A DNA stretch of 64,000 nucleotides from Candidatus Shapirobacteria bacterium (GCA_030698565.1 JAUYJS010000005.1:10607-74606); one strand, 5' to 3'; shown: positions 9,582 through 34,035, numbered from the stretch's first letter. The notes: generated by a model not told the origin, from the letters alone. A program made the numbers and translations.

Positions 9582-9584
9582 ATT

Positions 9585-13870: not shown

Positions 13871-15063
13871 AATGTTTTACCTATTTTATCCCAAGTATAA
13901 TGGTTTTTTACAAATTCAAATCCGTTAAGCCCCAACTGCCTGGATTTAGCCTGGTGATTTAATAGATCACATATTTGGGAAGTTAAATCTTTTTCAGAAC
14001 CGGTTTTAAAAATAATCCCCCCATTTGTTTTTGTAATTAATTCTTTAAGAGGCGGAATATCAGAAGTGATTACTGGCTTACCACGAGCCATAGCTTCAAT
14101 TAAGACTAATCCAAAACTTTCTTGCAGAGACGGTAAAACTAGAATCGTTGACTGATCAATTATTTTTTTGAGATCTTTATTTTTAAAATTGTTAATAAGA
14201 TATATTTTTTTTATAATTTCTGGGTCTAGTTTATTGATAGTATTTTTAATTTTTGAAAAAAAAAGAGTTTCTTGGCCGGCCAATGTAAGTGTTAGTTTTG
14301 GAAATTTTTTTGATAATTTAGAAAAGGATTTAATCAATATTTCGAGTCCTTTGTGGGCGGAAAAACTCCCTATAAATAATAAACTTGGAGAATCAGGATA
14401 ATTTATTTTTGGATTTTTTATGATAAATTTATCGTCTACTCCGTTGCCAATGGCAAAAATTTTATTGGCTGGAATTTTAAAATTATTAATAAAATATTTT
14501 TTTTCATAATCTGTTAATGACCAGATATAGTCGGCTTTTTTTAGGCAATTTATTAAGGGTTTTTTAAAAAAATCAATGTCGGTTTGGTGAAAACTGGCGT
14601 TAATTAAAATTTGACATGATTTTTTTTGAGTCAGCCTAAGAATATTTTTAATAAAATTGGTATAAATCACACTGGTTGTAGGCAATGGGCCGGTGACCAT
14701 GAGATCTGGTTGAAACTTTATTATAAAAAATATTGATTTTAAAAATGGAAAAATTTTGAAGACTGGGCCTTTTTGAAAAACCTTAAGCAAATCGGATAAA
14801 TAAGAATTATTGGGGAGAAATAAGTTTATAAATTTAAGAGGACGACGGAGAAAATTATAGACGGGAAGACGTAAAATAGGCGGGATCGCAATGACGGATG
14901 GTCTGCTTTTTTTGTTAACAAAATCATCGGTGCTGGTGCAATTACTGGTTAAAACAAGAATTTCATGTTTTTGTTTTTTAAGATACTCGCCAAATTTATA
15001 TATAACTTTAGACCCGCCGTCGATTGCTGGGGGAAAAATATGAGTAATCAATAATACTTTCAT
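13843..15063 (-). CDS. Glycosyltransferase, GT4.
   Basis: ESFGLVLIEAMARGKPVITSDIPPLKELI. This is the first gene of the long minus-strand run (15063 down to 3). Confidence 0.8.
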   Translation of the reverse strand: MKVLLITHIFPPAIDGGSKVIYKFGEYLKKQKHEILVLTSNCTSTDDFVNKKSRPSVIAIPPILRLPVYNFLRRPLKFINLFLPNNSYLSDLLKVFQKGPVFKIFPFLKSIFFIIKFQPDLMVTGPLPTTSVIYTNFIKNILRLTQKKSCQILINASFHQTDIDFFKKPLINCLKKADYIWSLTDYEKKYFINNFKIPANKIFAIGNGVDDKFIIKNPKINYPDSPSLLFIGSFSAHKGLEILIKSFSKLSKKFPKLTLTLAGQETLFFSKIKNTINKLDPEIIKKIYLINNFKNKDLKKIIDQSTILVLPSLQESFGLVLIEAMARGKPVITSDIPPLKELITKTNGGIIFKTGSEKDLTSQICDLLNHQAKSRQLGLNGFEFVKNHYTWDKIGKTLCQNIFFQQ

Positions 15064-15099: not shown

Positions 15100-16017
15100 A
15101 TGTTTAAAAAAATTGCCTCTTCAAAGTTTCTTAGATTTGGAATTTCGGCAATTTTAGTTTATTTTGCTTTTAGAAATGTAAATGTATCTGTAATTATAAA
15201 GGAATTAATTCAAGTTCCCCTTTGGTTTATTTTAGTAAATTTATTATATTCATTACTAATTTCACTTATTGGCTCTTATCGTTGGAGTTTACTTCTATTT
15301 GACCGCCCAGGGAAAAGTGAAGTATTCAATTTTCTAAAATCAACTTATTTGGGGGCGTTTTATTCATTAGCATTTCCTACCGGATTAGCTGGTGACCTTT
15401 TAAAATGGTTTCCTTTACAAAAGAAATACCCCGAGTTAACCAAAACTAGGCTTTTAAGTTCGGTTTTATTGGATAGATTTATTGGTTTTTCCTCTTTTAC
15501 TATTTTGGCTTTGATTTCCGTAATAATTGGAAAAATATTAAAAATATCTTTTCCTGATTTTATTTTTTGGTTATTTTTGGGTCTATCTATTGGTGTTGTA
15601 TTTTTTTATATTGCAATTTTTAGCTTTGATGTGGAAAAAATAATAAAAAAGTATCCCATTTTAGAAAAGTTAAATGAGATTGTAAGTCTTTTGAAAAAGG
15701 GAAATAAAAGAAGGATAATTTTAAGTTTATTGGTTTCGTTTTTGAGCGAATTTACCTGGATTATCCAGACATGGTTTGTGTCTGATTTTTTTCATGCAGG
15801 GTTTAGTGTTATTTCTGTTTTTGTTTTTGTACCAATAATAGCTTTGGTTTTAGTGTTGCCAATTTCGTTTGCTGGTTTTGGAGCCAGGGAACAATTATAT
15901 TTATTTTTCTTTTCTCAAATAGGTATTGCTAGCGAAAAAACCCTTTTAGTTTCAACATTTTTAGGAATAACTGGAATTTTGTCTTCGTTAATCGGAGGAC
16001 TTTTTCTTTTGTTTTAA
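15100..16017 (+). CDS. Polytopic membrane protein of the lysylphosphatidylglycerol-synthase-TM / flippase-like family (PF03706-like).
   Basis: N-terminal RFGISAILVYFAFRNVNVSVIIKELIQVPLWFILVNLLYSLLISLIGSYRWSLLL resembles the conserved start of the flippase-like domain. About 8 TM helices. Confidence 0.5.
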   Translation: MFKKIASSKFLRFGISAILVYFAFRNVNVSVIIKELIQVPLWFILVNLLYSLLISLIGSYRWSLLLFDRPGKSEVFNFLKSTYLGAFYSLAFPTGLAGDLLKWFPLQKKYPELTKTRLLSSVLLDRFIGFSSFTILALISVIIGKILKISFPDFIFWLFLGLSIGVVFFYIAIFSFDVEKIIKKYPILEKLNEIVSLLKKGNKRRIILSLLVSFLSEFTWIIQTWFVSDFFHAGFSVISVFVFVPIIALVLVLPISFAGFGAREQLYLFFFSQIGIASEKTLLVSTFLGITGILSSLIGGLFLLF

Positions 16018-16071: not shown

Positions 16072-17040
16072 ATGATATTAATTGTTGGTGGGGCGGGATA
16101 TATTGGTTCACATATAAACAAGGAATTAAATAAGCAAGGATTTGAGACGGTAGTTTTTGATAATTTAGCGTCTGGTCGAAAAGAGCTGGTGAAATGGGGA
16201 GAATTGATAATTGGTGATTTGGGTAATATAGAAGAAATTAGAAACGTTTTTAAAAAATACAAAATTGATGCTGTGTTTCATTTTGCGGCTTTTAAGGCAG
16301 TTGGTGAATCGGTAACTAATCCTCAAAAATATTATAAAAATAATATCTGTAATACCCTAAACCTATTAGAAGTAATGTTGGAAAACGACGTTAAAAAGTT
16401 TATTTTTTCATCATCAGCAGCTGTTTTTGGTAGTCCCCAATACATGCCCATTGACGAGAAACATCCTCAAAATCCAATAAACCCTTATGGTGAAACTAAA
16501 TTAATTATGGAACATGTTTTGAGGGATTACTCAAAGGCTTATGGTTTGAAGTATGTGTCGTTGCGTTATTTTAATGCTTGTGGAGCTGATTTAGAAAGTG
16601 AGGTTGGTGAATGGCCAGGAAGTAGTGCTAACTTAATTCCTATGGTCTTAGACGCGGCTATTGGACGACGTGAAGATATAAAAATTTTTGGAACTGATTA
16701 TCCAACTAAGGACGGAACATGTATTCGGGATTATATTCATGTAACAGATTTGGCAGTAGCTCATATTTTGGCTTTTGAATATTTAAATAATGGTGGAGAA
16801 TCAGATTGTTTTAACTTGGGTAATGGGAGAGGTTTTTCAGTAAAAGAAGTGGTTGATATGGCAAAAGAAGTTACTAAAATTGATTTTAAAGTAGTTGAGT
16901 CTGACAAAAGAGAGGGTGATCCGGCGGTATTAGTGGCTGATAGTGCCAAGGCTCAAAAAGTATTGGGTTGGAAATCTGAATACGCTGATTTAAAAACTAT
17001 TATAGAGAGTGCTTGGAGTTGGCATTTGAAGAAGAGTTGA
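16072..17040 (+). CDS. galE: UDP-glucose 4-epimerase (SDR family).
   Basis: MILIVGGAGYIGSH (GxxGxxG), YGETK catalytic YxxxK motif, 322 aa. Confidence 0.85.
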   Translation: MILIVGGAGYIGSHINKELNKQGFETVVFDNLASGRKELVKWGELIIGDLGNIEEIRNVFKKYKIDAVFHFAAFKAVGESVTNPQKYYKNNICNTLNLLEVMLENDVKKFIFSSSAAVFGSPQYMPIDEKHPQNPINPYGETKLIMEHVLRDYSKAYGLKYVSLRYFNACGADLESEVGEWPGSSANLIPMVLDAAIGRREDIKIFGTDYPTKDGTCIRDYIHVTDLAVAHILAFEYLNNGGESDCFNLGNGRGFSVKEVVDMAKEVTKIDFKVVESDKREGDPAVLVADSAKAQKVLGWKSEYADLKTIIESAWSWHLKKS

Positions 17041-17095: not shown

Positions 17096-18163
17096 ATGGA
17101 AAAAATAAAGCGTTTTATTGAATGCTTAATTCCGATAACTGTCTGCAATTTAAGATGTAGTTATTGCTACGTAGCTCAAGAAAATGGAAAGACAAACAAA
17201 ATGCCTGAATTTCAATATGGTATAAAAACTATCGCCAAAGCTTTGTCAAAAAAACGTCTTGGTGGGTGTTCGTATATTAGTATTTGTGGGGCAGGAGAAA
17301 CACTTATGCCATTTGAAATTGTGGGTATTACACATTCACTTTTAGAAAACAGTCATTATGTTAACTTGACTAATAATGGAACTCAAACTGAACGAATTAA
17401 TCAAATTTTAGATGTTTCTTTAGAATATAGATCGCGTTTACATTTTGCCTTTTCATTTCATTATTTAGAGCTAAAAAAAAATAATTTATTAGATATCTTT
17501 TTTGAAAATATTAAAAAAGTGAAAGCTGCCGGATGTTCTTTTTTAGTTCAGTTTAATATGTGCGATGAATATGTTCCTTACCTAGATGAGATGTATGACA
17601 TTTGTATAAAGGAAGTTGGAGCTCCGCCTCAAATAGCTGTCACTAGAGATGTAACTAATCTAAAGGAAATTAAATTATTAACGGCCCTTTCAAAAGAGGA
17701 ATATAAAGAACTTGGGCGAAAGTTTGATTCTCCGCTCTTTGATTTTACTCTTCAAAATTTTATGGTAAAAAGGCAAGAGTACTGTTATGCAGGAAAATGG
17801 TCTGGCGTTTTAAACTTGGCTACTGGTGAACTACGACGCTGTTATAGTGATCCTTCTCCACAGAATATTTTTGCGGATACTTCAAAGCCGATTGTTTTTC
17901 AAGCGATGGGTAAATCTTGTGTTTTAGCTTATTGTATTAACTCTTCACATTTTATGTCATTAGGTGTAATTCCATTTAAAAGAAGTCCTACCTATGCCTC
18001 ACTTAGGAATAGACAAAGTGCTCAGTGGTATTCCGCAAAGATGCAAAAATTTCTTTCTGGAAAATTAATTTATTCAAATCTTAATCTAAGTTTCTGTTTT
18101 GATTTAGTTGCTCAAATAATAAATCGTATTTATAGAAAAAAAAGACTAACTGGATTGCACTAA
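17096..18163 (+). CDS. Radical SAM enzyme with a Cys-rich C-terminal region (SPASM/twitch-like auxiliary-cluster candidate).
   Basis: CNLRCSYCY (CX3CX2C) near the N-terminus and ICGAGETLM (GGEPLL-like SAM motif). C-terminal cysteines: CYAGKWSGVLNLATGELRRCY...GKSCVLAYCINSSHF. Confidence 0.7.
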   Translation: MEKIKRFIECLIPITVCNLRCSYCYVAQENGKTNKMPEFQYGIKTIAKALSKKRLGGCSYISICGAGETLMPFEIVGITHSLLENSHYVNLTNNGTQTERINQILDVSLEYRSRLHFAFSFHYLELKKNNLLDIFFENIKKVKAAGCSFLVQFNMCDEYVPYLDEMYDICIKEVGAPPQIAVTRDVTNLKEIKLLTALSKEEYKELGRKFDSPLFDFTLQNFMVKRQEYCYAGKWSGVLNLATGELRRCYSDPSPQNIFADTSKPIVFQAMGKSCVLAYCINSSHFMSLGVIPFKRSPTYASLRNRQSAQWYSAKMQKFLSGKLIYSNLNLSFCFDLVAQIINRIYRKKRLTGLH

Positions 18164-18208: not shown

Positions 18209-19543
18209 TTATCTTCCAATAGAAAAATAGTCAAAACCCATTTCTTTCATTTCAGATGGACGATATTGATTGCGACCATCAAAAATTATTGGATTTTTTA
18301 GGTGTTTTTTGATTAATTGAAAGTTCGGTTGTTTATAGATGTTCCATTCGGTTAAGAGTGCTAATGCGTCGCAATCTTTTAGACATTCATAGTTGTCGTC
18401 AAAATATTCAATACTGGTTTCGATATCTTTAAATAAGCGTTTGGCTTCGTTTTGGGCTTCGGGATCGTGGGCTTTAATTTTTGTTCCACCTTCGACCAAC
18501 TTTCGAATAATTACTTGAGATGGCGACTCGCGCATATCGTCGGTTTCTGGCTTGAAAGCTAATCCCCAGATAGCAATAGTTTTGCCTTTTAATCCGTCTT
18601 TTTTGTTATCAAAATAATTTTGAATTTTGTCGAATAAATGTGCTTTTTGGGTTTCGTTGATAAGTTCTACAGCTTTGAGTAGCTTCATGTCATAACCATA
18701 TTCATTGCCGGTGTTGATAATAGCTTTGACATCTTTGGGGAAACAGCTACCACCATAACCAATGCCAGGACTGATAAATGAATAGCCGATTCTTTTGTCG
18801 GCACCAACACCAAGTCGAACCATTTCTACGTTGGCATCAACCTTTTCACATAAATTTGAAATTTCGTTGATAAAGGAAATCTTGGTAGCCAACATCGAAT
18901 TTGAGGCATATTTAGTGACCTCTGCCGAACGGACATCCATAAATATGATTCTTGGTTCAGCATCTTTGAATAATCCTGAGTAAAGTTCATTCATTTGTTC
19001 TTTGGCCCGAATGCTTTCTGTCCCGATTATGACCCTGTCTGGATTCATGAAGTCCTCGATAGCGTTGCCTTCCCTTAAGAATTCTGGGTTGGAAACAATA
19101 TCGAAATCTACATTAATTCCTCTTTCCTTAATTTTTTGATCAATAAAATCTCTTAATTGTTTACCTGTACCAACTGGTACGGTTGATTTATTGATAATGA
19201 GTTTGTAGTCCTTTAAATTTTTTGCTATTTCTTCGGCGACCGCATAAACGTATTTTAAATCTACTGAACCATCAGGATTAGATGGAGTTCCAACAGCAAT
19301 AAAAATAAATTGAGACTGGTCAAATCCATCAAGCAAGTTGGTGGAAAAATGAAGTCTGCCTTCTTGAAAATTTTTATTGACTATTGGTTCTAGGCCTTTT
19401 TCATAAATAGGGATTATCCCCTGTTTAAGTTTGTCGATTTTTGTTTGGTCGACATCGACACACCAGACCTCGTTGCCTATATCAGCAAAACACGCGCCGG
19501 CGACTAATCCAACATATCCTGTACCGATAACGGTAATTTTCAT
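18209..19543 (-). CDS. ugd: UDP-glucose 6-dehydrogenase.
   Basis: MKITVIGTGYVGLVAGACFADIGNEV (Rossmann fold), catalytic GGSCFPKD, 444 aa. Confidence 0.9.
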   Translation of the reverse strand: MKITVIGTGYVGLVAGACFADIGNEVWCVDVDQTKIDKLKQGIIPIYEKGLEPIVNKNFQEGRLHFSTNLLDGFDQSQFIFIAVGTPSNPDGSVDLKYVYAVAEEIAKNLKDYKLIINKSTVPVGTGKQLRDFIDQKIKERGINVDFDIVSNPEFLREGNAIEDFMNPDRVIIGTESIRAKEQMNELYSGLFKDAEPRIIFMDVRSAEVTKYASNSMLATKISFINEISNLCEKVDANVEMVRLGVGADKRIGYSFISPGIGYGGSCFPKDVKAIINTGNEYGYDMKLLKAVELINETQKAHLFDKIQNYFDNKKDGLKGKTIAIWGLAFKPETDDMRESPSQVIIRKLVEGGTKIKAHDPEAQNEAKRLFKDIETSIEYFDDNYECLKDCDALALLTEWNIYKQPNFQLIKKHLKNPIIFDGRNQYRPSEMKEMGFDYFSIGR

Positions 19544-19617
19544 AATTATTGAACGGTTAAATTGTTTTTATTTTACCTCATTTTTAATTATTGAGAAGAC
19601 CATGTCCTGCTTGTATG

Positions 19618-19626
19618 TGGTATAAA
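19618..19626 (+). promoter_or_regulatory. Extended -10-like TGGTATAAA immediately upstream of the ATG at 19633 of the DPM1-like GT2. It may be a leaderless start.
   Basis: TGnTATAAA 7 nt before the ATG. It lies in the divergent intergenic region with ugd. Confidence 0.35.
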
Positions 19627-19632
19627 AATTTA

Positions 19633-20304
19633 ATGAGAATTTTAATTACGGTACCGGTATACAATGAAAAAAATCGGGCGGTTGAGACAATAAATAGTAT
19701 TTTGGCAATTTCTAATAATAATGTTTTGGTGGTTGATGATGGTTCAATTGATGACACTTGGAAAATACTTAAAAATAATTTTAAAGCTGTTGATAGGGTA
19801 AAACTAATTAAACATGTTTTAAATTTGGGTAAGGGAGCTGCAATGAAAACTGGGGCTGAATGGGCTTGGAAAAGTGGTTATGACGCAATAATTTATATAG
19901 ATGCGGATGGTCAGCATAATCCAAAGCATTTACCACTTTTTGAAGAAGCGATGGAAAATTATAAATTGGTTTTTGGTTATAGGCAACTTGGTAAAGGGGT
20001 TCCTTTTATTAGAAAATTTGGAAACATAATATCAGGTAATTTGATAAAAAAATTATTTGGAATTAAAAGAAAGGATGTGTTGTGTGGATTTTTGGGATTT
20101 AATAAATCTGTTTATAAAAAGATTGTATGGAATTCGACTAGGTATGGAGTTGAAAGTGAAATGACAGCTAGGGCGGGTAGAAATAAGGTTGAATTTTCGG
20201 AGATAAAAATTGATACAATCTATATTGATAAATACAAAGGGGTAACTATTTTTGATGCTATAAAAATTTTATTTAATATTCCCCTTTGGTATTTTTCAAA
20301 ATGA
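19633..20304 (+). CDS. GT2 polyprenyl-phosphate glycosyltransferase (DPM1/GtrB-like, short soluble form).
   Basis: MRILITVPVYNEKNRAVETI...VVDDGSIDDT. The ORF track starts at a TTG at 19591, but the ATG at 19633, preceded by TGGTATAAA, is the more plausible start. Confidence 0.75.
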   Translation: MRILITVPVYNEKNRAVETINSILAISNNNVLVVDDGSIDDTWKILKNNFKAVDRVKLIKHVLNLGKGAAMKTGAEWAWKSGYDAIIYIDADGQHNPKHLPLFEEAMENYKLVFGYRQLGKGVPFIRKFGNIISGNLIKKLFGIKRKDVLCGFLGFNKSVYKKIVWNSTRYGVESEMTARAGRNKVEFSEIKIDTIYIDKYKGVTIFDAIKILFNIPLWYFSK

Positions 20305-20636
20305 ATATACTTGGAGTACAATTGATACTTTTGTGTTTTGCCTTTTTCATGATTTATGTGTTGTTTTTGCATTGGAAAAAGAAAGAAATTAGTAGCTTTA
20401 GTTTTAGTGTGTGGATATTTATATGGACTGTTTTTGTTTTAATTGCAATATTTCCAAAAACTTTAGAAACATTAATTTTGAAACAATTTTTTGTAAGAGT
20501 GATGGATTTTGGGATGATTGTAGCTTTTATTATTTTGACTTATTTAACTTTTGAAAATAATGTAAAAATAAAAAAATATGAGAAACAAACAGAAAAATTG
20601 ATTAGAATTTTGGCTGTGAATAAAAAACAAAAATAA
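20301..20636 (+). CDS. Small 3-4 TM membrane protein, DUF2304-like. This family typically sits immediately downstream of DPM1-like GT2 genes.
   Basis: About 111 aa. ATGA start/stop overlap with the upstream GT2. Hydrophobic segments LGVQLILLCFAFFMIYVLF, WIFIWTVFVLIAIF and MDFGMIVAFIILTYL. Confidence 0.5.
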   Translation: MNILGVQLILLCFAFFMIYVLFLHWKKKEISSFSFSVWIFIWTVFVLIAIFPKTLETLILKQFFVRVMDFGMIVAFIILTYLTFENNVKIKKYEKQTEKLIRILAVNKKQK

Positions 20637-20639
20637 TTT

Positions 20640-22538
20640 ATGAATAAAGAAATATTTATAACTGGTAGCAATGGATTTATCGGTCAATATTTGGTCAATT
20701 ATTTAAGTCAAAAAGGGTTTGTGGTTTATGCTTTATTGAGAAAAAAATCTATTCCTGGTTTTAATTTAAATAAAAATGTTGTGTGTATTATTGGTGATTT
20801 GTTGAATAAACCTTCATTAATAACCGGAATACCTAAAAATAGCATAGTTGTTAATCTGGCCGCAAATCCTTATCACCCAAAATTGAGTTATAAAGTAAAT
20901 GTTGAAGGTACACAAAATTTAATAGATGTGTGTAAAAAAAACAAAGTAAATAGAATTATTCATATTAGTAGTCAGGCAACTAAAATTGAGAATAAAGGTG
21001 TCTATGCTAAGACAAAAAATAAAAGTGATGAAATTATTAATAACTCTGGTTTAAATTACGTTATTTTAAAACCAAGTCTGGTTTATGGTGGGGGCGAAAA
21101 AGGTTTGTTTAATAAAATTAGAAGCTTGGTTAATAAAATTCCGTTGGTACCTATATTTGGTAGTGGTAAAACAAAGGTTAATCCCGTTTATGTTGAGGAT
21201 TTATGCAAGTTTATAGAACTAACAGCTTTAAACTCCAAAGATAAAAATTCTATATACGATGTCGGAAGTGTAAAACCGATTACTTACAATCAATTATATC
21301 GGGGAATAGTTGTGGGTATAGAAAAAAATATTTGGTTTTTACACATACCAATTTGGGTGGGAATTTTGTTTGGGAAATTATTTGAATTAGCTAAACTAGG
21401 AAATCCACCTTTTTTTATTGACAATGTTTTGGGTTCTACACAAGAAACAAACTGTAACCCAGGCCCAATTATAAAAAAATATAAATACGAGCCTTTAAGT
21501 TTTATGGAAGGTTTGAAATTGATAAATAAAAAACCTGCTGTTAATGTGGGGATGGTTGGTTTGGGAAAAATGGGATTATTACATTTATCTATTTTGAGTA
21601 GTTTTAGGGATGTAGATATAGTTGCTTTAATTGATACAAATAGAAAACTGTTTACCACTATAAAGAGTATGGGAGTAGCGGGAAATTTTTATGAAAATAT
21701 TGAAGAGGCCTTGAAAAATGAAGAAATTAATGCTGTTTTTGTGTTAACACCAACTTTTACACATTTGCCAATTATTAAAACTTTACTGAAAAAAAATATT
21801 AGTATTTTTGTGGAAAAACCAGCTACCTTAAACCAAGGTCAATTAGAAGAAATTACAAAACTTAAAACAAGTTATAAAGGAATATTTAATGTTGGTTATA
21901 CATTGCTTTTTAAGAGAATTTATCGAGAAATAAAAAATATAATTGATACAAAAAAATATGGGAAAATTAAGTCGTTTGAGATAAATTTCGAACACGGTGA
22001 AGTTTTTGGAAAGAGAAATGGTTGGATGTTTAGTAAAGAAAAATCCGGAGGAGGTGTTTTAATGAATCCCGGACCTCATGTATTTTCATTGATAAATTTA
22101 TTGTTTGGAAAACCGGAAAAAATAAGTGGAGATATATATAAAATATATTCTTTAGAGGTTGATGATGAGGCAAGGTTAAATTTAGACTATAAAGATTTTG
22201 AGGGTAAAGCCTTTTTGTCTTGGTCGGTTAAAAATAGAAATATTGCGACAACAACGATTAAAATTAATTTTGAAAAATCAGAACTAAATACTGATGGAAA
22301 TATAATTGAAATTATCCCAACTAATGGGAAAATGATTAAAATAAGCGAAAAAGACTCACCTGTTTTGCTTGATGGCACCTTGAATATAAATCCCGATGCT
22401 AATGGTGAAGCGTATTATATTGAAGATAGATTGTTTGTTGATTCAGTAAAGGATAAAAAGGATGCGAATATAAATAATTTTGAGTTTGCGTATGATACGG
22501 AAAGTATGATATTTAAAAGTTATTTGAAATCAAAATGA
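20640..22538 (+). CDS. Fusion protein: N-terminal NAD-dependent epimerase/dehydratase (SDR) and C-terminal Gfo/Idh/MocA-family oxidoreductase.
   Basis: N-domain IFITGSNGFIGQYLVNYL with YAKTK. At about residue 300: VNVGMVGLGKMGLLHLSIL, a second Rossmann fold, and FVEKPATL (the EKP motif of Gfo/Idh/MocA). Confidence 0.7.
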   Translation: MNKEIFITGSNGFIGQYLVNYLSQKGFVVYALLRKKSIPGFNLNKNVVCIIGDLLNKPSLITGIPKNSIVVNLAANPYHPKLSYKVNVEGTQNLIDVCKKNKVNRIIHISSQATKIENKGVYAKTKNKSDEIINNSGLNYVILKPSLVYGGGEKGLFNKIRSLVNKIPLVPIFGSGKTKVNPVYVEDLCKFIELTALNSKDKNSIYDVGSVKPITYNQLYRGIVVGIEKNIWFLHIPIWVGILFGKLFELAKLGNPPFFIDNVLGSTQETNCNPGPIIKKYKYEPLSFMEGLKLINKKPAVNVGMVGLGKMGLLHLSILSSFRDVDIVALIDTNRKLFTTIKSMGVAGNFYENIEEALKNEEINAVFVLTPTFTHLPIIKTLLKKNISIFVEKPATLNQGQLEEITKLKTSYKGIFNVGYTLLFKRIYREIKNIIDTKKYGKIKSFEINFEHGEVFGKRNGWMFSKEKSGGGVLMNPGPHVFSLINLLFGKPEKISGDIYKIYSLEVDDEARLNLDYKDFEGKAFLSWSVKNRNIATTTIKINFEKSELNTDGNIIEIIPTNGKMIKISEKDSPVLLDGTLNINPDANGEAYYIEDRLFVDSVKDKKDANINNFEFAYDTESMIFKSYLKSK

Positions 22539-23125
22539 TTCTCGGAAATATAAAAAAAATAGATTTTGATTATGTGAGTTTTGATAAAAAAAATAAGAAA
22601 AATAAATTGACAATAATTCCCAATGTTGGCGGAATTGCCAGGGAAATGACTGGTGGTTCACAAATAGGAATTATTTTAAAAAAATTTTTATCTTTAACTC
22701 TTAAAAATAAACTTACTCTTTGTTTGAATAATATTTCTTTTTTACCTCAATTAGCTAAAATGGATTATGCAGTGGGCGTAAAGTTGTTGTGTGAATTAGA
22801 AATATTGAAAGCCAAGGATGTTAATGTTAAAAAAAATAAATTTATTTTACATAACCAAATGGTAGATATGGCTTTGGCTTTAAATAACAAAAAGGTGTTT
22901 ATTAATTATTTTTATTTATCTAAAAAATATTGTTTTGATCCTGCTTTAATAACGTACAATATTGGACCATTAATAAAAATGCTTTCATCTCTTCCAAGTA
23001 TTTCGGAAAATTTAACAATCTATACACCAATAAACAAAGATAATTATTTAATGAATCCGGGTTTAGAAGATGTTTCAGACTATTTAAATAAATCTGGAAT
23101 TAATTTTATAAATATTTATGAATAA
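22535..23125 (+). CDS. Hypothetical protein. No family recognised.
   Basis: 196 aa, no TM helix and no recognisable motif. It overlaps the upstream stop and the downstream start, so it is part of the operon. Confidence 0.3.
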   Translation: MILGNIKKIDFDYVSFDKKNKKNKLTIIPNVGGIAREMTGGSQIGIILKKFLSLTLKNKLTLCLNNISFLPQLAKMDYAVGVKLLCELEILKAKDVNVKKNKFILHNQMVDMALALNNKKVFINYFYLSKKYCFDPALITYNIGPLIKMLSSLPSISENLTIYTPINKDNYLMNPGLEDVSDYLNKSGINFINIYE

Positions 23126-24059
23126 AGAAAATACCATTGATCTTAATAAAATAGGTTTAGATTTTCTACGGTGGAGTAAAAAAAATCCCGTAGGTAAAAT
23201 TCCACGAGGTGTATCGAAAGAGGGGGCTGGAGAAAACAGAGTACCTTTTGCGCACTTAGCCAATTCGGTTCCGGTGTATTTGACTTTTCGAGAGATCTTG
23301 AAATTATCAAAACATGAAAGAGCCTTTGTTTTGGATATTGGCTGCGGTACTGGTAGAAATATTTCTTATGTAAAGGAAAGCGTAAAAAAAACCGAATATG
23401 AGTTCTTTGGCGTTGATTATTCAAAATCCTGTATTGACTTTGCACGAAGTCAATATAAAAAACAAGGCGTAACTTTCGTTCAGCATGACGGTAAATATTT
23501 ACCGTTTCCAGATTCTTGTTTTGATTTTGTAGTATCATCCCATGTGCTAGAGCATATAGATAAAGAGGGTGGTATATTTTACTTTAAAGAAATTTCCCGT
23601 ATTTTGAAGAAAGGTGGTGTTGCGATAATTGGGACTCCTAACCGTAAACATTGCCAGGATCTATTTGCAATAAATATAAATGATGATAAACAATACAGGT
23701 TAATATTGCCGCATTTACACGAATATTATTATGATGAATTAAAAAAAATGGTGATTAACTCTTCTATTTTTTCAAAGGTCTCGGTAGATCAGACAGTTAA
23801 TCTAGTTAACAGGAAACTAATGGTTGATTCAATTGAAAAAATTAAGCCAAGAGCTGGTTTTCTGAATAAAATTAAGTATACTATATATACCGTTCTAAGA
23901 AGTAATATAAGACTGCAAGATTTGATGGCAAGAATTGGAACCGAATATATTCTTAAAAGAATGGGTGTTGGTTATAAGGATCTAATAAAGAGTACTTATT
24001 ATATAAAAGATGATGGTAAGGGTGATGGTGACAATTTTATAGTTATTGCAGAAAAATAA
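23118..24059 (+). CDS. Class I SAM-dependent methyltransferase.
   Basis: VLDIGCGTGRN (motif I), FDFVVSSHVLEHI, LKKGGVAII (post-I/II). Confidence 0.8.
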   Translation: MNKENTIDLNKIGLDFLRWSKKNPVGKIPRGVSKEGAGENRVPFAHLANSVPVYLTFREILKLSKHERAFVLDIGCGTGRNISYVKESVKKTEYEFFGVDYSKSCIDFARSQYKKQGVTFVQHDGKYLPFPDSCFDFVVSSHVLEHIDKEGGIFYFKEISRILKKGGVAIIGTPNRKHCQDLFAININDDKQYRLILPHLHEYYYDELKKMVINSSIFSKVSVDQTVNLVNRKLMVDSIEKIKPRAGFLNKIKYTIYTVLRSNIRLQDLMARIGTEYILKRMGVGYKDLIKSTYYIKDDGKGDGDNFIVIAEK

Positions 24060-24061: not shown

Positions 24062-25519
24062 CTAGTTTTTTGAAAATAAGATAAAATTGCTTGTTTCTTT
24101 AAGAATTCGATATTCCTTGTTGTTTTTAAATTGGTGTATATATCCAAATTGTTCTTTTTCTGTCAAAGGCCAATAATTATTATCTTTACCCAACAACAGA
24201 TATTTTACCTTGTCATAATAAACTGGAAAAATGTATAAATTTTGTCTGTTAGTTAAATGGCCAGATATATAATCTTGAGTAGACACGGGTGAATTTTCGG
24301 GGATTAATTTGATCATGTCGTCCATTTCCCTATCTAATGGAGTGTAAAAACTTTGAAGTAATAGGTGAAAGTTTAATTTTGGAGAAGTAAATTTTTTATA
24401 ACCCGTATACATAAAAATAACTACTATAAATAGTATTATGAAATTATAATTAATATTAAATATTTTTTTAGAAATTTTACTAAAATTATTAATTCCTAAA
24501 ATTACTGCATAAATAAAAAAAGGTATACTTAAAGATTCATAGTGCATGGTAGTTGATTTTAAAAGTAAATCGGTGGAGAGAAGATTGGCTGATAAGGCAC
24601 TAAGACCAACTAAAGTAATCAATGGAGCAAAAAAGAAAAAAGGAAAAATGGGAAAAAATAATTTTGATAAATAACTTATATTTTGACTCGTAAATACACT
24701 TTTAAAAAATAAAACAGGATTTTTAATTGAATTTACAATAATATTAAAAATTGAGCTGCCAAGAGGATTGCCATAAATACTCTCAAAAATATAAGTATGA
24801 TAATTTGAAAGTTGGGGTATAAAAACTTTTATTGTCAAAAAAAAGTAGACCAAACTTATTAGGGCTGTGGTTATCCCCCTTCTTTTGTTTTTTGAGGTCA
24901 AAATTAAATATAGACCAAAGAAAAAGGCAGTAATGGCTACATTTTCTTGAACTAGTAGGAAAAGAGCTAGGGAAATATAATAAAACTTTTGATTTAATTT
25001 TTCATTTGCATAAATGAGTAATAAACCAAAAAAAATTGACAAGGAAAATGCGTGAAATTCACTAAGTACCGCTGAAACCGAAGTAAAATAAGTGAGAAAT
25101 AGTGTTTGGATAATTATGGCTATATAAAAGTTTTTTAATTTATCTTTGGCCAATAAAAAAACTATAAATCCACCTAGTGCCGTTAGAAGTGACTGAATTA
25201 TTAAAAGTGTTTGAGGGACAGGGAAAATATAATAAAAAGGTACAAATAAAAAAATAATCGGATTAAAGTGTATACCGAAAACATTGCTGTTGGTGGGGAT
25301 CTCCATATTTCTATCCCCCCAAAAATTGTGAATACTGTAATTGAATGTATTTTGCATCGGTCGACCATGCACCGTATTCCACATAGCCTGGGCAAAATTA
25401 GTTAAATCTCCCCTGGTCCTGTGGGCATTATATAACTCAATTGATTGAGTAAAATATGCTATAAAAAAAACTAAACACAAACCTAGGCTAATTAAATATA
25501 AATAATATTTTTTTTTCAT
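24062..25519 (-). CDS. Polytopic membrane protein, DUF2079-like (GT-C clan candidate).
   Basis: 11 or more TM helices. The first extracytoplasmic loop RTRGDLTNFAQAMWNTVHGRP...FGIHFNPI resembles the DUF2079 N-terminal signature. The family call is from memory. Confidence 0.45.
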   Translation of the reverse strand: MKKKYYLYLISLGLCLVFFIAYFTQSIELYNAHRTRGDLTNFAQAMWNTVHGRPMQNTFNYSIHNFWGDRNMEIPTNSNVFGIHFNPIIFLFVPFYYIFPVPQTLLIIQSLLTALGGFIVFLLAKDKLKNFYIAIIIQTLFLTYFTSVSAVLSEFHAFSLSIFFGLLLIYANEKLNQKFYYISLALFLLVQENVAITAFFFGLYLILTSKNKRRGITTALISLVYFFLTIKVFIPQLSNYHTYIFESIYGNPLGSSIFNIIVNSIKNPVLFFKSVFTSQNISYLSKLFFPIFPFFFFAPLITLVGLSALSANLLSTDLLLKSTTMHYESLSIPFFIYAVILGINNFSKISKKIFNINYNFIILFIVVIFMYTGYKKFTSPKLNFHLLLQSFYTPLDREMDDMIKLIPENSPVSTQDYISGHLTNRQNLYIFPVYYDKVKYLLLGKDNNYWPLTEKEQFGYIHQFKNNKEYRILKETSNFILFSKN

Positions 25520-27489
25520 TTTTTATTTTCGTAAATTAAGTAATTTTGATCTTGATAAACCGGTTTAATATTTTTTAATTTTGTTAAAACAAAATCTTGG
25601 CAATAATTATTGGATAATTCGATGGGATTGTTGGTGATTATGTAATCAAAACTACTAAGGGTATCACTATAATAGTTGCTGTTGGTTTTAAAAAAATTTT
25701 GCCAACCGATCCAATACCAATTACATTGGTGTGTTTGAGCAGAAAAATTGACACGTGGAAGAATATGTTTAGATGCATCTAAAACCTTTTTATGGACATT
25801 ATTTTGGGTTGATTTATTAATAAAAACAATTGGTCCATTGTCAGCGTTTGGTTGGTTGTAGTATTCTGGTTGAAAAAATTGTTTCGTATATAAAGGGAAA
25901 GCTCTGAAATATTTATACGTGTTAAATATGTTGAAAATAATTATGATTGTGGAAAGAGGTATGATATATTTTTGAAATCTAGATAAATTAAGTTTAGAAA
26001 TGTAAATAACCGTTACTAGCGCCAATATAAATTGATAAGGCCATACGTATCGGTAATATCGAGTCACTATTCCTACGGCAAAGTAGGCAATAAAACTATA
26101 AAGAAAAATAATTTGGATTTGCTCAAACTTTTGTCGTTTTACAATTTGGATTGCAAGTTTAACGAGGATTACTAAAAAAATAATCGCAAACAGGATATAG
26201 GCTAAGGTGGTATAACCAGGAGTTGCTTCTAAAAATGAACTAGACTTAATGAAAGTTAAGAGTGGGTATGTGACAAAGCCCCCCGTAATCCATTGATATT
26301 TATTAAGTGTTGTCTGAATCATAAAATTATTTTCCAAAATATCATTCGGCGCCCAAATTTTTGGAGTTGGAAATAAGTATTGAGCGAAAGGAAAGACGGG
26401 ACTACCAGTAAAACTGTAAGTTCTAAAAAGCCAAATGGTTAAAGGAAAAAGGAAAATAAAAGAAATTAATGCAAAGTTTTTTAGTGTTAAATGAACTTTT
26501 GATAGACAAACTATTATTAGTGGTAAAAAGAAAAAAACCAATGGGAAGTATTTCATGCCCGAGGCAAAACCGAAAAGAAAGGACGAAAAGTAAACCAAAT
26601 AAATATTTGGTTTTTCTAAATAGAGATAGCAAAAGTAAATAGAGATAAGACAGATTACTAATAAAAGCAAATCATAATATCCATTTGAGGATTGAAAAAT
26701 AACAATGGGTGTAAGAAGGATGGTGTAAGACAGGACTTGCAGTGAGGTACTCAAATTAAATTTTTTGAATATTTCTTTTAAAAAATAAATAAGTAATATT
26801 AATGGAAATACAAAGGAAAATTGAAAACCCCTTAGCCCCCCTATCTGATAAAAGAAACTAAAAAAACCAATTCCGTTTTGAGGAAATAATGAAGAAATAC
26901 TTTCTAAAATTGGCGCGAAAGAATTGTTGAGTATATACCATTTGGCATTATACAAATTAGCCATAACTGCATCCCAGTGGTATTGAGGTTGAGAACTAAT
27001 TATAAAACTCAAATTAATTATAAAAAGATCGATAATATTGAGTTTTATAATAAATTGAATTAAGTTTTTATGTATCTGTGTTGGAATCTTTTTATTTAAT
27101 TTAAATTTGTAGAAGATAGAGATAAATAAAACAGAACAGATAAAAATAAGCGATAGCTTGGGATTTAAAATTAAGCCGGCCACTATATAAACTTCTATGA
27201 GTAAAATAAAAAGACCAAATGAAAGTAGTAATTTACTTTTAAAATCGGGAAATATTTTATAAGAAATAAAATTGAGAGTATAAAAGATAAATATTAGAAA
27301 TAAAGAAAATGAAAATCGAAAATAAACGAAAAACAATAAAAATAAGCAAGTAATAATTACTGTTTTATATTTTTTATGCCAAGAAGCTGTCTTAATTAAA
27401 AATAATTCAATAAGAGTAAAAAAGAATGACAGATAAAAAATATATATGACACTATTGGGATGAATTAGTTTTGAAATTAACTGGATCAT
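25516..27489 (-). CDS. Large polytopic membrane protein (657 aa, 15 or more TM helices). It is a putative GT-C-type glycosyltransferase of unassigned family.
   Basis: Hydrophobicity pattern only. The C-terminal roughly 120 aa are hydrophilic. No definitive motif. Confidence 0.35.
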   Translation of the reverse strand: MIQLISKLIHPNSVIYIFYLSFFFTLIELFLIKTASWHKKYKTVIITCLFLLFFVYFRFSFSLFLIFIFYTLNFISYKIFPDFKSKLLLSFGLFILLIEVYIVAGLILNPKLSLIFICSVLFISIFYKFKLNKKIPTQIHKNLIQFIIKLNIIDLFIINLSFIISSQPQYHWDAVMANLYNAKWYILNNSFAPILESISSLFPQNGIGFFSFFYQIGGLRGFQFSFVFPLILLIYFLKEIFKKFNLSTSLQVLSYTILLTPIVIFQSSNGYYDLLLLVICLISIYFCYLYLEKPNIYLVYFSSFLFGFASGMKYFPLVFFFLPLIIVCLSKVHLTLKNFALISFIFLFPLTIWLFRTYSFTGSPVFPFAQYLFPTPKIWAPNDILENNFMIQTTLNKYQWITGGFVTYPLLTFIKSSSFLEATPGYTTLAYILFAIIFLVILVKLAIQIVKRQKFEQIQIIFLYSFIAYFAVGIVTRYYRYVWPYQFILALVTVIYISKLNLSRFQKYIIPLSTIIIIFNIFNTYKYFRAFPLYTKQFFQPEYYNQPNADNGPIVFINKSTQNNVHKKVLDASKHILPRVNFSAQTHQCNWYWIGWQNFFKTNSNYYSDTLSSFDYIITNNPIELSNNYCQDFVLTKLKNIKPVYQDQNYLIYENKK

Positions 27490-27491: not shown

Positions 27492-28487
27492 TTACTTCTT
27501 TGAATATATTCCAAAAAATGTTTCTGGTTTTAAAATATTGTTTTCCAGATAGTACTTATCTAAGTTAACAATAAAGTCGAAGATTGATCGGTCTAGTGCT
27601 TGTCTTAGATCAAAATTGGGGCCAAATTTGGTGTCGAAAAATCTGCGACAAAGCGAAAAGGCTGGGATGTAATAAACCTCATTTAAGTGTTTTCTTAGGG
27701 ACGGAAGTATGGCTTCAGAATTGATACATTCAAATGAATTAATGGAATAATCGACATTCTCATAAGTTTCGGCGTAAACAGGATCGGCGTGTTTAGTATA
27801 ATCAATTTTAAATTTAGGAGGTAATATTTTCCAGATATTATTAACAACTTTAAATGTTTCGTCCCACATTAAATAACCATTTTTAGTTGGAATGTCTACG
27901 GTTACAAAAATACCACCTGGTTTTAAACTTTTATTAATTTCTTTACAGATATGATCAAGTTTAAGAAAGTGATGTAGTGAGGCGTGGGCAAGAATGACAT
28001 CATATTTATTTTCAGGAAGGGAGATTTTATTTACGTCTTGAGTGATAGCATTAAACTTTATATTTTGTTTTTTAGCTTCGTTTTCGCCTTGTTTTAGGGC
28101 TGATTCATTTATATCGACACAAGATAACTCCAGTTCAGTGCCGTTCTTTTTGAGAAGTGGGGCAATTCCTAGAAGTTCTAAACCACATGCTCCTGATCCT
28201 AGACCTAATAATTTAATTTTTTTCTTATTTTTTGTGTGTCGACTAATATATTCATTTAGACTTGAAACACCGGTTTTTTTTTTGATATTTTCCACAAAAT
28301 GGATATCGGTGTCAGTCCAAACTGGTGGAACATCTTGAAATAATTTATCTTTAAAAATATTTTTATAATGTTCTATTTCCCCTTCCATTTTTTGAGAATA
28401 ATTTTTATTATTCTCTTTTCGCTTTTTATCTGACAATTGGTTGGTTAAGGATTTGAACAATTTTTTCAGACGAGTCACCTGTTCCAT
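27492..28487 (-). CDS. Class I SAM-dependent methyltransferase.
   Basis: LLGLGSGACGLELL, VILAHASLHHF, LKPGGIFV. The true start is probably an internal Met (MEGEIEHY), which would reduce the 62-bp overlap with wecB. Confidence 0.75.
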   Translation of the reverse strand: MEQVTRLKKLFKSLTNQLSDKKRKENNKNYSQKMEGEIEHYKNIFKDKLFQDVPPVWTDTDIHFVENIKKKTGVSSLNEYISRHTKNKKKIKLLGLGSGACGLELLGIAPLLKKNGTELELSCVDINESALKQGENEAKKQNIKFNAITQDVNKISLPENKYDVILAHASLHHFLKLDHICKEINKSLKPGGIFVTVDIPTKNGYLMWDETFKVVNNIWKILPPKFKIDYTKHADPVYAETYENVDYSINSFECINSEAILPSLRKHLNEVYYIPAFSLCRRFFDTKFGPNFDLRQALDRSIFDFIVNLDKYYLENNILKPETFFGIYSKK

Positions 28488-29538
28488 AGGGATTGTTTGA
28501 TTTTGAAATTTTTAAATAATGTTTTTTATTTTCTAAAACATCTTTTATATTTTTATATATTTTATCTTTTTTAGTGCCTACTAAAATTAGTGTCCCTGCC
28601 TTAATCCCCTCTTGTCTTTCAGTTTCGTCTCTTAAAACCAGGACTGGTTTGTGAAATGTAGGAGCTTCTTCTTGAAGTCCTCCAGAATCGGTAGCAACCA
28701 AGAAGCATTGACTCATTAATTTAACCATATCTGTGTAAATTAATGGCTTAGTTAAATATATTCTATTATGGTTACTTAGTATTTTTTTGGCAATGTCTTG
28801 AATAAGTGGATTTAGATGAACGGAAAAAATTACTTGAGTGTCGGGGTAATCAATAATTATATTTTTTATAGCTTGAAAAATATCTTTCATGGGTTTGCCA
28901 ATAGATTCGCGGCGATGACAAGTTAGGAGAATAGTTTTTTTACTAAAATCTATGGTTTTTAATATTGGTTCTTGATAACCAATATTTTTTTGAGCAATAA
29001 ATTTAATGGCATCGATGACAGTATTGCCTGTAACAAAAATATTATCCTTTATATTTTCTTTTAATAAGTTATTTTTATTGTTTTGAGTTGGACAAAAATA
29101 AATATTGGATAATTTATCTACAAGTTGACGATTAATTTCTTCGGGGAATGGGTTTTGATTGTCGTATGTTCTTAACCCTGCTTCAATATGACCAATGGGG
29201 ATGTGTAGGTAAAATCCTGCTAAGGCAGAAACAAATGCAGTGGTGGTGTCACCGTGGACTAAAATTAAATCCGGTTTTTCGGTTTCAAATATTTTTTGAA
29301 TCTTTGATAATACTTTTTGGGTAATATCGAAAAGTGTTTGGTTTTGAGTCATAATATCCAGATCATAATCTGGTTTTATATTAAAAATGTCCAAGACTTG
29401 GTCGAGCATTTCTCGGTGTTGGGCGGTAGCAACTACAATTGTTTGAATTTTGGTTTTTCTTAAAGCCATAATAATTGGAGCCATCTTTATAGCTTCGGGT
29501 CGAGTACCAAAAACACAGATTATTTTTTTGTATTTCAT
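28426..29538 (-). CDS. wecB: UDP-N-acetylglucosamine 2-epimerase (non-hydrolysing).
   Basis: KIICVFGTRPEAIKMAPII, HIEAGLRT, 370 aa. Confidence 0.85.
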   Translation of the reverse strand: MKYKKIICVFGTRPEAIKMAPIIMALRKTKIQTIVVATAQHREMLDQVLDIFNIKPDYDLDIMTQNQTLFDITQKVLSKIQKIFETEKPDLILVHGDTTTAFVSALAGFYLHIPIGHIEAGLRTYDNQNPFPEEINRQLVDKLSNIYFCPTQNNKNNLLKENIKDNIFVTGNTVIDAIKFIAQKNIGYQEPILKTIDFSKKTILLTCHRRESIGKPMKDIFQAIKNIIIDYPDTQVIFSVHLNPLIQDIAKKILSNHNRIYLTKPLIYTDMVKLMSQCFLVATDSGGLQEEAPTFHKPVLVLRDETERQEGIKAGTLILVGTKKDKIYKNIKDVLENKKHYLKISKSNNPYGTGDSSEKIVQILNQPIVR

Positions 29539-32676: not shown

Positions 32677-32744
32677 AATTTTCGGTATTTAAGTTAAAAT
32701 AGTATATCGTTTTTTATTATTTATTGGTTGATTAAATTTACCGT

Positions 32745-33998: not shown

Positions 33999-33999
33999 A

Positions 34000-34008: not shown

Positions 34009-34035
34009 GAAAATTATACCTTAATAACGAGTTGA

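What the first reader, a model, noticed from the sequence alone, without database searches (positions are those of the whole stretch)
20640..22538. Single polypeptide fusing an SDR-type NAD-epimerase/dehydratase to a Gfo/Idh/MocA oxidoreductase
The ORF has two successive Rossmann dinucleotide-binding motifs (GSNGFIGQY and GMVGLGKMG), a YAKTK catalytic motif in the first half and the EKP motif of Gfo/Idh/MocA in the second. In nucleotide-sugar pathways these are normally separate enzymes, for example a 4,6-dehydratase or epimerase and a WbpB-type 3-dehydrogenase. A fusion implies substrate channelling for a two-step oxidation/epimerisation of a UDP-sugar. With ugd and wecB nearby this could feed a uronic or keto sugar.
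Basis: seen in the sequence. Interest (0 to 1): 0.55.

Follow-up and report, generated by a model that had tools for sequence, protein, structure and literature searches.

The report
Fused two-cofactor sugar oxidoreductase, Patescibacteria
A real, widely conserved single protein in Patescibacteria joins an NADPH-type reductase to an NAD-type sugar dehydrogenase. It sits in an operon that loads a sugar onto a lipid carrier for cell-surface glycosylation, always beside a small uncharacterised partner protein, and its exact chemistry is still unknown.

Summary
Pfam supports an SDR half (aa 5-209) and a Gfo/Idh/MocA half (aa 301-546). It is not a frameshift artefact: more than 100 distinct full-length homologues (31-61% identity, mostly Patescibacteria) keep the same fusion and the catalytic residues of both halves.

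The interpretation needs revision.
- The N-half is an NDUFA9-like SDR with an NADP-type Arg, not a GalE/RmlB-type enzyme.
- The C-half belongs to a Gfo subfamily that is always followed by an uncharacterised partner gene (52/52 stand-alone loci, 9/9 fusion loci). The partner's long form is an aldo-keto-reductase-like TIM barrel. Some proteins fuse all three.
- The window operon is GacI/GacJ-like GT2 + DUF2304, fusion, partner, methyltransferase. A flippase-like protein and DUF2079 membrane proteins lie nearby.
- Stand-alone N-half orthologues pair or fuse with an FAD oxidoreductase instead.

Best reading (about 0.45): an oxidise-then-reduce sugar modifier, DprE1/DprE2-like in logic, feeding a polyprenyl-phosphate sugar donor. 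Whether the substrate is lipid- or UDP-linked is unresolved. It is an uncharacterised variant of a known kind and moderately interesting.

The parts
20640..22538 (+). SDR-Gfo/Idh/MocA fusion ORF, 632 aa (stop codon 22536-22538)
20640..21524 (+). N-half: extended, NDUFA9-like SDR (aa 1-295). TGxxGxxG at aa 8-15, Arg34 (NADP-type), Asn87/Ser110/Tyr122/Lys126, family signature DNVLGSTQxTxC at aa 261-272
21525..21539 (+). short linker (aa 296-300). Length is conserved in most members and longer in a few distant ones
21540..22535 (+). C-half: Gfo/Idh/MocA dehydrogenase (aa 301-632). GLGKMG aa 307-312, Asp332 (NAD-type), Glu392-Lys393-Pro394, GGGxxxN476xxxH480
22535..23125 (+). conserved partner, 196 aa, no Pfam or NCBIfam family. 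It is a shortened form of a ~290-aa AKR-like TIM-barrel family. Its start overlaps the fusion's stop codon (ATGA)
19591..20304 (+). small GT2 (probable true start ATG 19633). GacI/PpgS/AglJ-like polyprenyl-phosphate sugar synthase candidate
20286..20636 (+). DUF2304 membrane protein with 3 TM-like segments, GacJ/Rv3632-like activator subunit candidate
23118..24059 (+). class I SAM-dependent methyltransferase, last gene of the operon. Syntenic in 6 of 9 fusion loci
24062..25519 (-). DUF2079 polytopic membrane protein with an invariant Gly37-Asp38 after TM1. Candidate GT-C type transferase (fold not tested)
25516..27489 (-). 657-aa polytopic membrane protein with no Pfam hit. The syntenic homologue in L072 is called DUF8201
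15100..16017 (+). LPG_synthase_TM / flippase-like membrane protein. Recurs within 8 kb in 5 of 9 fusion loci
16072..17040 (+). GalE UDP-glucose 4-epimerase (TIGR01179, 457 bits against a cut-off of 262)
18209..19543 (-). UDP-glucose/GDP-mannose dehydrogenase family (Ugd), divergent from the operon

Best explanation
The ORF encodes a genuine bifunctional, two-cofactor sugar oxidoreductase. It works with the small partner protein encoded immediately downstream. The Gfo/Idh/MocA half uses NAD+ to oxidise a secondary hydroxyl of a hexose or HexNAc to a ketone; C3 is the most likely position by analogy with its structural neighbours. The N-terminal NDUFA9-like SDR half uses NADPH to reduce a keto group again. 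The net result is an inverted (epimeric) or otherwise re-set stereocentre. This is the same logic as DprE1/DprE2 or IolG/IolW, with both steps on one polypeptide. The enzyme serves the sugar that the co-transcribed GacI/GacJ-like GT2 + DUF2304 pair loads onto polyprenyl phosphate. That sugar is probably also methylated by the operon's methyltransferase, flipped by the LPG_synthase_TM-like protein, and transferred outside the cell by DUF2079-type membrane transferases. Shown: the fusion, the conservation of both active sites, the cofactor-type residues, the obligatory partner, and the synteny. Inferred: the direction of each half-reaction, the carbon attacked, net epimerisation, and the carrier of the substrate. 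I marginally favour the polyprenyl-phosphate-linked sugar over the UDP-sugar.
Confidence: 0.45

Rival explanations
1. Same two-step redox chemistry, but entirely at the nucleotide-sugar level. The fusion (with the partner) converts UDP-GlcNAc, UDP-GalNAc or UDP-Glc(A) into a modified UDP-sugar, and the GacI-like GT2 then transfers it to polyprenyl phosphate.
For: Soluble proteins without TM segments. The ancestral stand-alone Gfo+partner pair lies mostly in Leloir-type GT4/GT26 clusters (L077-L079). WlbA and GnnA are close structural neighbours. GalE, Ugd and WecB are in the window.
Against: The small GT2 is almost invariably adjacent in fusion loci (8/9). N-half orthologues carry membrane anchors and pair with FAD oxidoreductases next to GT2 and GT-C genes. 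The N-half's closest sequence relatives are NDUFA9, 3beta-HSD, HpnA and OleD, which act on or beside lipids. Scores for UDP-sugar enzyme equivalogs are very low.
Confidence: 0.35
2. Reversed roles. The SDR half makes a keto-sugar as a 4,6-dehydratase or a UDP-GlcA decarboxylase of ArnA/UXS type, and the Gfo half acts as the ketoreductase (KijD10-like).
Against: Arg34 (NADP-type) and the absence of an acidic residue at the end of beta2 argue against an enzyme that keeps NAD+ bound. Scores are far below dehydratase and decarboxylase equivalogs. Asp332 makes the Gfo half NAD-type, which is unusual for a biosynthetic reductase. Ugd is not conserved in other fusion loci (L072, L073).
Confidence: 0.1
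3. More than an epimerase. The Gfo half makes a 3-keto intermediate. On this the partner (a TIM barrel) and/or the methyltransferase perform enolisation-dependent chemistry, such as C2/C4 inversion, elimination or C-methylation. The SDR half then reduces the product, giving a rare or branched sugar.
For: The partner is obligatory, and its long form has about 60 positions conserved at 90% or more, many of them at the barrel's strand ends. The methyltransferase is syntenic (6/9). GenD2 and KanD2, the top Foldseek hits, create keto groups for further tailoring.
Against: In the window the partner is truncated and has lost most long-form conserved residues, so it may be only structural here. The methyltransferase is a generic class I enzyme.
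Confidence: 0.2
4. The fusion is a sequencing or assembly artefact, or one half is a dead domain.
For: There is an A-rich run near the junction (nt ~21525-21535).
Against: More than 100 independent fusion homologues are colinear through the junction. The catalytic residues of both halves are invariant.
Confidence: 0.01

Closest known systems
DprE1/DprE2 decaprenylphosphoryl-ribose 2'-epimerase (Mycobacterium)
   Same: An oxidase plus an SDR-type reductase together invert one sugar carbon through a keto intermediate. The product is a polyprenyl-P-sugar donor for GT-C transferases. Orthologues of the N-half also pair or fuse with an FAD oxidoreductase.
   Different: The oxidase here is an NAD-type Gfo/Idh/MocA domain, not a VAO-type flavoenzyme. 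The SDR is an extended NDUFA9-like type. The two are fused, and a third TIM-barrel-derived protein is obligatory. The sugar is probably a hexose or HexNAc, since the synthase is GacI-like rather than PRPP-based. The lipid-linked substrate is inferred, not shown.
Three-component extracytoplasmic glycosylation systems: GtrA/B/V, GacI/J/K/L, PpgS/Rv3632/Rv3779, C. youngae ORF12-15 (PMC11127046; 10.1101/180810)
   Same: A small GT2 with a DUF2304 subunit, a flippase-like membrane protein and polytopic membrane transferases, with auxiliary sugar-modifying enzymes encoded alongside.
   Different: The auxiliary enzyme set (SDR-Gfo fusion + partner + methyltransferase) has not been described. The flippase candidate is LPG_synthase_TM-type, not GtrA, Wzx or MATE. 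The transferase candidates are DUF2079 and an unannotated 657-aa protein.
WbpB/WlbA and GnnA UDP-GlcNAc(A) 3-dehydrogenases; GenD2/KanD2 glycoside 3''-dehydrogenases
   Different: Sequence scores are far below family cut-offs. No partner aminotransferase is present. Asn replaces the triad Asp. The enzyme is coupled to an SDR and to the TIM-barrel partner.
NDUFA9 / 39-kDa complex I subunit-like extended SDRs (also HpnA, OleD, 3beta-HSD/NSDHL)
   Same: These are the best sequence and structural matches of the N-half. They share the NADPH-type Rossmann region and the C-terminal helical segment with the PPF..DNV-type motif.
   Different: The N-half is not part of a respiratory complex, keeps a full Asn-Ser-Tyr-Lys catalytic set, and is fused to a dehydrogenase in a glycan operon.
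Dehydrogenase + aldo-keto reductase two-enzyme epimerisation (DON 3-epimerase DepA/DepB; engineered DADH-AKR13B3 fusion, PMC13566255)
   Different: The substrate class differs. The partner does not match the Pfam AKR model (no Pfam hit) and lacks an evident D-Y-K-H tetrad. In the window it is truncated.

Membership tests
Extended SDR / PF01370 NAD-dependent epimerase/dehydratase superfamily (N-half) | Pfam score above the gathering threshold | tested here: met
   83.5 bits against 20.9, aa 5-209
Extended SDR / PF01370 (N-half) | TGxxGxxG dinucleotide motif and the Ser-Tyr-Lys (YxxxK) catalytic residues | tested here: met
   T8 nearly invariant (at least 90%). G9, G12 and G15 92/92. S110 91/92. 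Y122 and K126 92/92
GalE/RmlB/UXS-type NDP-sugar 4-epimerase, 4,6-dehydratase or decarboxylase (N-half) | Score reaching the NCBIfam equivalog cut-offs | tested here: not met
   galE 26.7 against 262; dTDP-glucose 4,6-dehydratase 28.4 against 365; PseB 27.9 against 408; LegB 38.8 against 475
GalE/RmlB/UXS-type enzymes (N-half) | Retained NAD+ bound through an acidic residue at the end of beta2 | tested here: not met
   Arg34 follows beta2 in 89/92 members and there is no acidic residue. The rule itself is established SDR knowledge, not tested here
Gfo/Idh/MocA oxidoreductases (C-half) | PF01408 N-terminal Rossmann domain and PF22725/PF02894 C-terminal domain above gathering thresholds | tested here: met
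   75.2 against 24; 61.8 against 27; 29.9 against 22.9
Gfo/Idh/MocA oxidoreductases (C-half) | GxGxxG motif, EKP motif with the catalytic Lys, and the downstream Asp-x3-His | tested here: inconclusive
   GLGKMG, E392-K393-P394 and H480 are invariant. The Asp position is Asn476 in 91/92 fusion members, whereas 53/60 stand-alone relatives have Asp
WbpB/WlbA/archaeal UDP-GlcNAc 3-dehydrogenase (C-half) | Equivalog score, and an adjacent WbpE-type aminotransferase | tested here: not met
   NF040723 59.3 against 450, and only aa 302-447 match. 3o9z E 1e-4. None of the 33 annotated window ORFs (of at least 100 aa) between 6.7 and 35.7 kb is a DegT aminotransferase
myo-Inositol 2-dehydrogenase IolG (C-half) | Equivalog score | tested here: not met
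   TIGR04380 76.9 against 355, and only aa 301-454 match
DprE1/DprE2 epimerase | FAD/VAO-type oxidase DprE1, classical SDR DprE2, and a decaprenyl-P-ribose substrate made from PRPP | tested here: not met
   The oxidase half is an NAD-type Gfo and the synthase is GT2/GacI-like, not a PRPP transferase. The resemblance is mechanistic only
Three-component polyprenyl-P-sugar glycosylation system | Polyprenyl-phosphate sugar synthase (GT2 of GtrB/GacI/PpgS type), with or without a DUF2304 subunit | tested here: inconclusive
   GT2 PF00535 is met. The best NCBIfam hits are PpgS (67.9 against 370), AglJ and ArnC, all below cut-off. DUF2304 PF10066 is met at 53.7 against 25.5.
Three-component polyprenyl-P-sugar glycosylation system | Dedicated flippase | tested here: inconclusive
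   PF03706 LPG_synthase_TM 109 against 33.4. TIGR00374 flippase-like 34.1 against 43.2. Activity cannot be tested here
Three-component polyprenyl-P-sugar glycosylation system | GT-C fold transferase that uses the lipid-linked donor | tested here: inconclusive
   DUF2079 PF09852 215 bits. Polytopic, with an invariant Gly-Asp after TM1. hhalign against PMT-type proteins was uninformative and there was no PDB sequence hit. That DUF2079 belongs to the GT-C clan is recalled from memory only
Aldo-keto reductase superfamily (partner, 22535-23125) | (beta/alpha)8 barrel, a Pfam Aldo_ket_red match, and the Asp-Tyr-Lys-His tetrad | tested here: inconclusive

The most novel reading that the evidence does not exclude
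The fusion, its partner and their unfused relatives form a previously unrecognised redox module. It consists of a Gfo dehydrogenase and an AKR-like TIM-barrel protein, with an NDUFA9-like SDR added in Patescibacteria, and it is widespread in Bacteria and Archaea. In Patescibacteria the module would act as an NAD/NADPH-dependent, flavin-independent counterpart of DprE1/DprE2, epimerising a sugar after it has been loaded on polyprenyl phosphate. The SDR would have taken over the reductase role of a decaying partner.
Probability: 0.25. Interest if true: 0.7.

Novelty: new variant of a known kind. Interest (0 to 1): 0.5.

Why it matters
Patescibacteria have tiny genomes yet keep this five-gene operon and its membrane partners, which implies an important surface glycan whose sugar is unknown. 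The work also exposes two things. One is an unnamed family of about 290 aa (631 proteins, no Pfam model) that is always paired with a specific Gfo dehydrogenase subfamily across Bacteria and Archaea. The other is an SDR lineage that pairs with either an NAD-dependent or an FAD-dependent oxidase. If the oxidise-reduce model is correct, this is a second, independently evolved solution to lipid-linked or nucleotide-sugar epimerisation, and a natural one-polypeptide epimerase of interest for glycoengineering. If it is wrong, the set is still a well-defined target for enzyme discovery.

Tried and rejected
1. Frameshift or assembly artefact: rejected on the homologue evidence.
2. P0294 and P0069 as naturally split versions: P0294 ends inside the Gfo Rossmann motif and P0069 starts inside the SDR half, so both are contig-truncated fusions. 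The context look-up for P0294 found nothing.
3. SDR genes next to stand-alone Gfo+partner pairs as orthologues of the N-half: rejected, because they match the window's GalE-like SDR better.
4. Gfo-partner two-domain fusions in high-GC loci: the long open frames turned out to be different reading frames. Only L014 shares a frame, and there the Gfo domain is truncated.
5. Metagenome scan with an N-half alignment: the tool chose the generic Rossmann pattern, so L084-L163 are unrelated SDRs and were ignored.
7. hhalign of DUF2079 against PMT/PMT_2: probability 0.1 with thin alignments, uninformative. The PDB sequence search with DUF2079 gave no hit.
8. The afdb50 fold library was unavailable, so I could not ask whether AFDB holds named examples of the architecture.
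9. The promoter and terminator scan was no better than shuffles.
10. Literature searches for the fusion, for DUF2079 and for a Gfo+AKR pairing in glycan synthesis found nothing specific.

Full report
OBSERVATION. The window carries one uninterrupted ORF at 20640-22538 (+), 632 aa (sequence read). Pfam places PF01370 Epimerase on aa 5-209 (E 2e-23), PF01408 GFO_IDH_MocA on aa 301-420 (E 9e-21) and PF22725 on aa 428-546 (E 8e-17), all above gathering scores. ugd (18209-19543, -) and wecB (28426-29538, -) are nearby. An identical protein is in NCBI as 'MAG: Gfo/Idh/MocA family oxidoreductase [Candidatus Shapirobacteria bacterium]'.

NOT AN ARTEFACT. A word-indexed search found 174 homologues. Of the 120 listed, nearly all are 590-700 aa with both domain sets, at 31-61% identity, from independent assemblies named Shapirobacteria, Microgenomates, WWE3 or Patescibacteria. 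Alignments of 26 and 92 members are colinear through the junction, with a short linker. An exhaustive HMMER search of 1.84 billion cluster representatives gave 3094 hits at E<1e-30. I classified the top 150 with my own half-profiles: 51 SDR-Gfo fusions, 70 N-half-only proteins and 21 Gfo-only proteins. Two apparent 'halves' that scored like true fusions are contig-truncated fusions.

BOTH HALVES LOOK CATALYTIC AND USE DIFFERENT COFACTORS. Across 92 fusion members, G9/G12/G15, Y122, K126, G307/G309/G312, E392-K393-P394, H480, D509 and Y420 are invariant. S110 is 91/92 and N87 is 86/92. Arg34, directly after SDR strand beta2, is present in 89/92. By the established rule for extended SDRs this marks NADP(H) preference, and it is the opposite of the acidic residue found in enzymes that retain NAD+ (GalE, RmlB, UXS). 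Asp332 at the end of Gfo strand beta2 is 90/92 (+2 Glu), the NAD marker. The simplest reading is an NAD+-dependent oxidation in the Gfo half and an NADPH-dependent reduction in the SDR half. This is inferred from sequence rules, not measured. The AF2 model is confident: pLDDT 94, pTM 0.73.

OPERON AND NEIGHBOURHOOD. Five genes abut or overlap on the + strand: GT2 (19591/19633-20304), DUF2304 (20286-20636), the fusion, the partner, and a class I methyltransferase (23118-24059). The GT2's best named relatives are PpgS, AglJ, PgfS and ArnC, all polyprenyl-phosphate sugar synthases, although the scores are below cut-off. A ~230-aa GT2 followed by a DUF2304 membrane protein is exactly the GacI/GacJ and PpgS/Rv3632 arrangement, in which the small protein binds and strongly activates a HexNAc-P-polyprenol synthase (10.1101/180810). 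Convergent with the operon are DUF2079 (24062-25519) and a 657-aa polytopic protein. An LPG_synthase_TM/flippase-like protein, GalE and Ugd lie upstream. In nine fusion loci (window, L001, L002, L003, L072, L073, L075, L076, L083) I find the partner in 9/9, a small GT2 within two genes in 8/9, the methyltransferase adjacent in 6/9, LPG_synthase_TM within 8 kb in 5/9, and DUF2079, PMT or YfhO membrane proteins within 8 kb in 7/9. This matches the 'three-component' scheme of lipid-linked donor synthase, flippase and GT-C transferase, for which auxiliary epimerases acting on the lipid-linked sugar have been reported (PMC11127046). I could not demonstrate that DUF2079 has a GT-C fold.

THE SDR LINEAGE HAS A SECOND LIFE. 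Among the 70 N-half-only representatives, about 47 are 409-485 aa, with an extra C-terminal region that ends in a TM-like hydrophobic segment. They share 33-39% identity with the window's N-half and keep its signature N262/G265/S266/Q268. In two contexts such an SDR is followed, with overlapping start, by a ~530-aa FAD-type oxidoreductase. One of these loci also carries small GT2 genes and a PMT_2 GT-C. In P0378 (1014 aa) the SDR, the hydrophobic segment and an FAD/GMC-type oxidoreductase are a single protein in a glycan locus that ends with a PMT gene. One of these SDRs is from Candidatus Daviesbacteria. The same reductase lineage therefore pairs with two unrelated oxidase types. This is the DprE1 (oxidase)/DprE2 (SDR reductase) logic, and in that form it is membrane-anchored.

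MOST LIKELY MECHANISM. The Gfo half oxidises a secondary hydroxyl with NAD+, probably C3 of a hexose or HexNAc. The SDR half reduces a keto group with NADPH, giving a net stereochemical change. The partner is bound to the Gfo half. In Patescibacteria it is probably mainly structural, having lost the residues that are conserved where it stands alone. The product is the sugar carried on polyprenyl phosphate by the GacI/GacJ-like synthase, possibly methylated, then flipped and transferred outside the cell. Whether the redox steps precede or follow transfer to the lipid is not resolved. Three things favour a lipid-linked substrate: the near-invariant GT2 adjacency, the membrane-anchored SDR+FAD relatives, and the lipid-associated nearest relatives of the N-half. 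Three things favour a nucleotide sugar: the proteins are soluble, the ancestral Gfo+partner pair sits mostly among GT4/GT26 genes with a small GT2 in only 9 of 55 loci, and WlbA is structurally close. I put the overall model at about 0.45 and the purely nucleotide-level version at about 0.35.

UNEXPLAINED. The canonical Asp of the Gfo Lys-Asp-His triad is Asn476 in 91/92 fusion members. It is Asn in 11/13 triple fusions and in 28/38 of the other fusion representatives, where it can even be hydrophobic. It is Asp in 53/60 stand-alone relatives that have the long partner. The fused clade thus combines three changes: SDR gain, partner erosion, and Asp to Asn. Their mechanistic meaning is unknown, and they leave room for a non-standard role of the Gfo half.

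COMPARISON AND NOVELTY. The kinds are known: two-step oxidase/reductase sugar epimerisation (DprE1/E2, IolG/IolW, DepA/DepB) and three-component extracytoplasmic glycosylation. This particular module is not described in the literature I could search. Databases carry only generic names. The module is an NDUFA9-like SDR fused to a Gfo dehydrogenase, with an obligatory AKR-like partner, in a GacI/GacJ-type operon. I file it as a new variant of a known kind, of moderate interest (0.5). The fusion itself is ordinary in databases. The universal Gfo+partner pair and the dual oxidase partnership of the SDR lineage are the parts a specialist would want to test.

Noticed in passing
L004-L060, L077-L079 (e.g. 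L077 6969-8879, Methanothermococcus okinawensis CP002792): A Gfo/Idh/MocA subfamily is always followed by an unnamed ~290-aa AKR-like TIM-barrel protein. This holds in 52/52 loci across many bacterial and archaeal phyla. The partner family has 631 members and no Pfam model.
   Followed up: yes
L080 5186-8081; L081 7001-9920; L082 7001-10045: Orthologues of the fusion's SDR half with a C-terminal hydrophobic anchor are followed by, or fused to (P0378, 1014 aa), an FAD/GMC-type oxidoreductase. Some of these loci also have small GT2 and PMT-type genes, a DprE1/DprE2-like pairing in Patescibacteria.
   Followed up: partly
L083 7001-9880 (P0304) and 12 other representatives of 926-972 aa: These are triple fusions of SDR, Gfo and a divergent partner domain. 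In L083 the preceding gene is a methyltransferase-GT2 fusion, and three GT-C-type genes (YfhO, PMT, YfhO) lie upstream.
   Followed up: partly
window 22065-22067 (codon 476): The catalytic Asp of the Gfo triad is Asn throughout the fusion clade but Asp in stand-alone relatives that have the long partner. The significance is unknown.
   Followed up: partly
window 25516-27489 (-): This is a 657-aa protein with about 12 hydrophobic segments and no Pfam hit. It is syntenic in L072 (called DUF8201 there) and L075, and may be another membrane glycosyltransferase.
   Followed up: no
window 17096-18163 (+): A radical SAM protein lies between galE and ugd, with only weak and varied family matches (STM4011-like, HpnH, MoaA). 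Its role is unknown and it was not seen in the other fusion loci.
   Followed up: no
window 6705-15063 (-) and 27492-35668: The fusion operon sits inside a ~30-kb envelope-glycan region. It contains a Wzy-like protein, several GT2 and GT4 genes, a hexapeptide acyltransferase, a GT4-GT2 fusion of 737 aa, two more methyltransferases, WecB, a pyruvyl transferase and an ABC ATPase, which suggests at least one further glycan pathway.
   Followed up: partly
L001 (CAYILS010000053.1): A 5.9-kb contig labelled 'uncultured Pseudomonadales' carries GT2, the fusion (53% identity) and the partner in the Patescibacterial arrangement. It is probably a mis-binned contig.
   Followed up: no
L078 8911-9806 (Nitrosocaldus-type contig): The SDR gene after the Gfo+partner pair is called as three fragments of 95, 66 and 96 aa. 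It is either a pseudogene or an assembly frameshift.
   Followed up: no
P0270 (786 aa representative): This fusion variant has about 115 extra residues inserted in the middle of the SDR half (Epimerase hit aa 3-111, SDR profile resuming at aa 229). It could be an insertion or a chimeric assembly.
   Followed up: no
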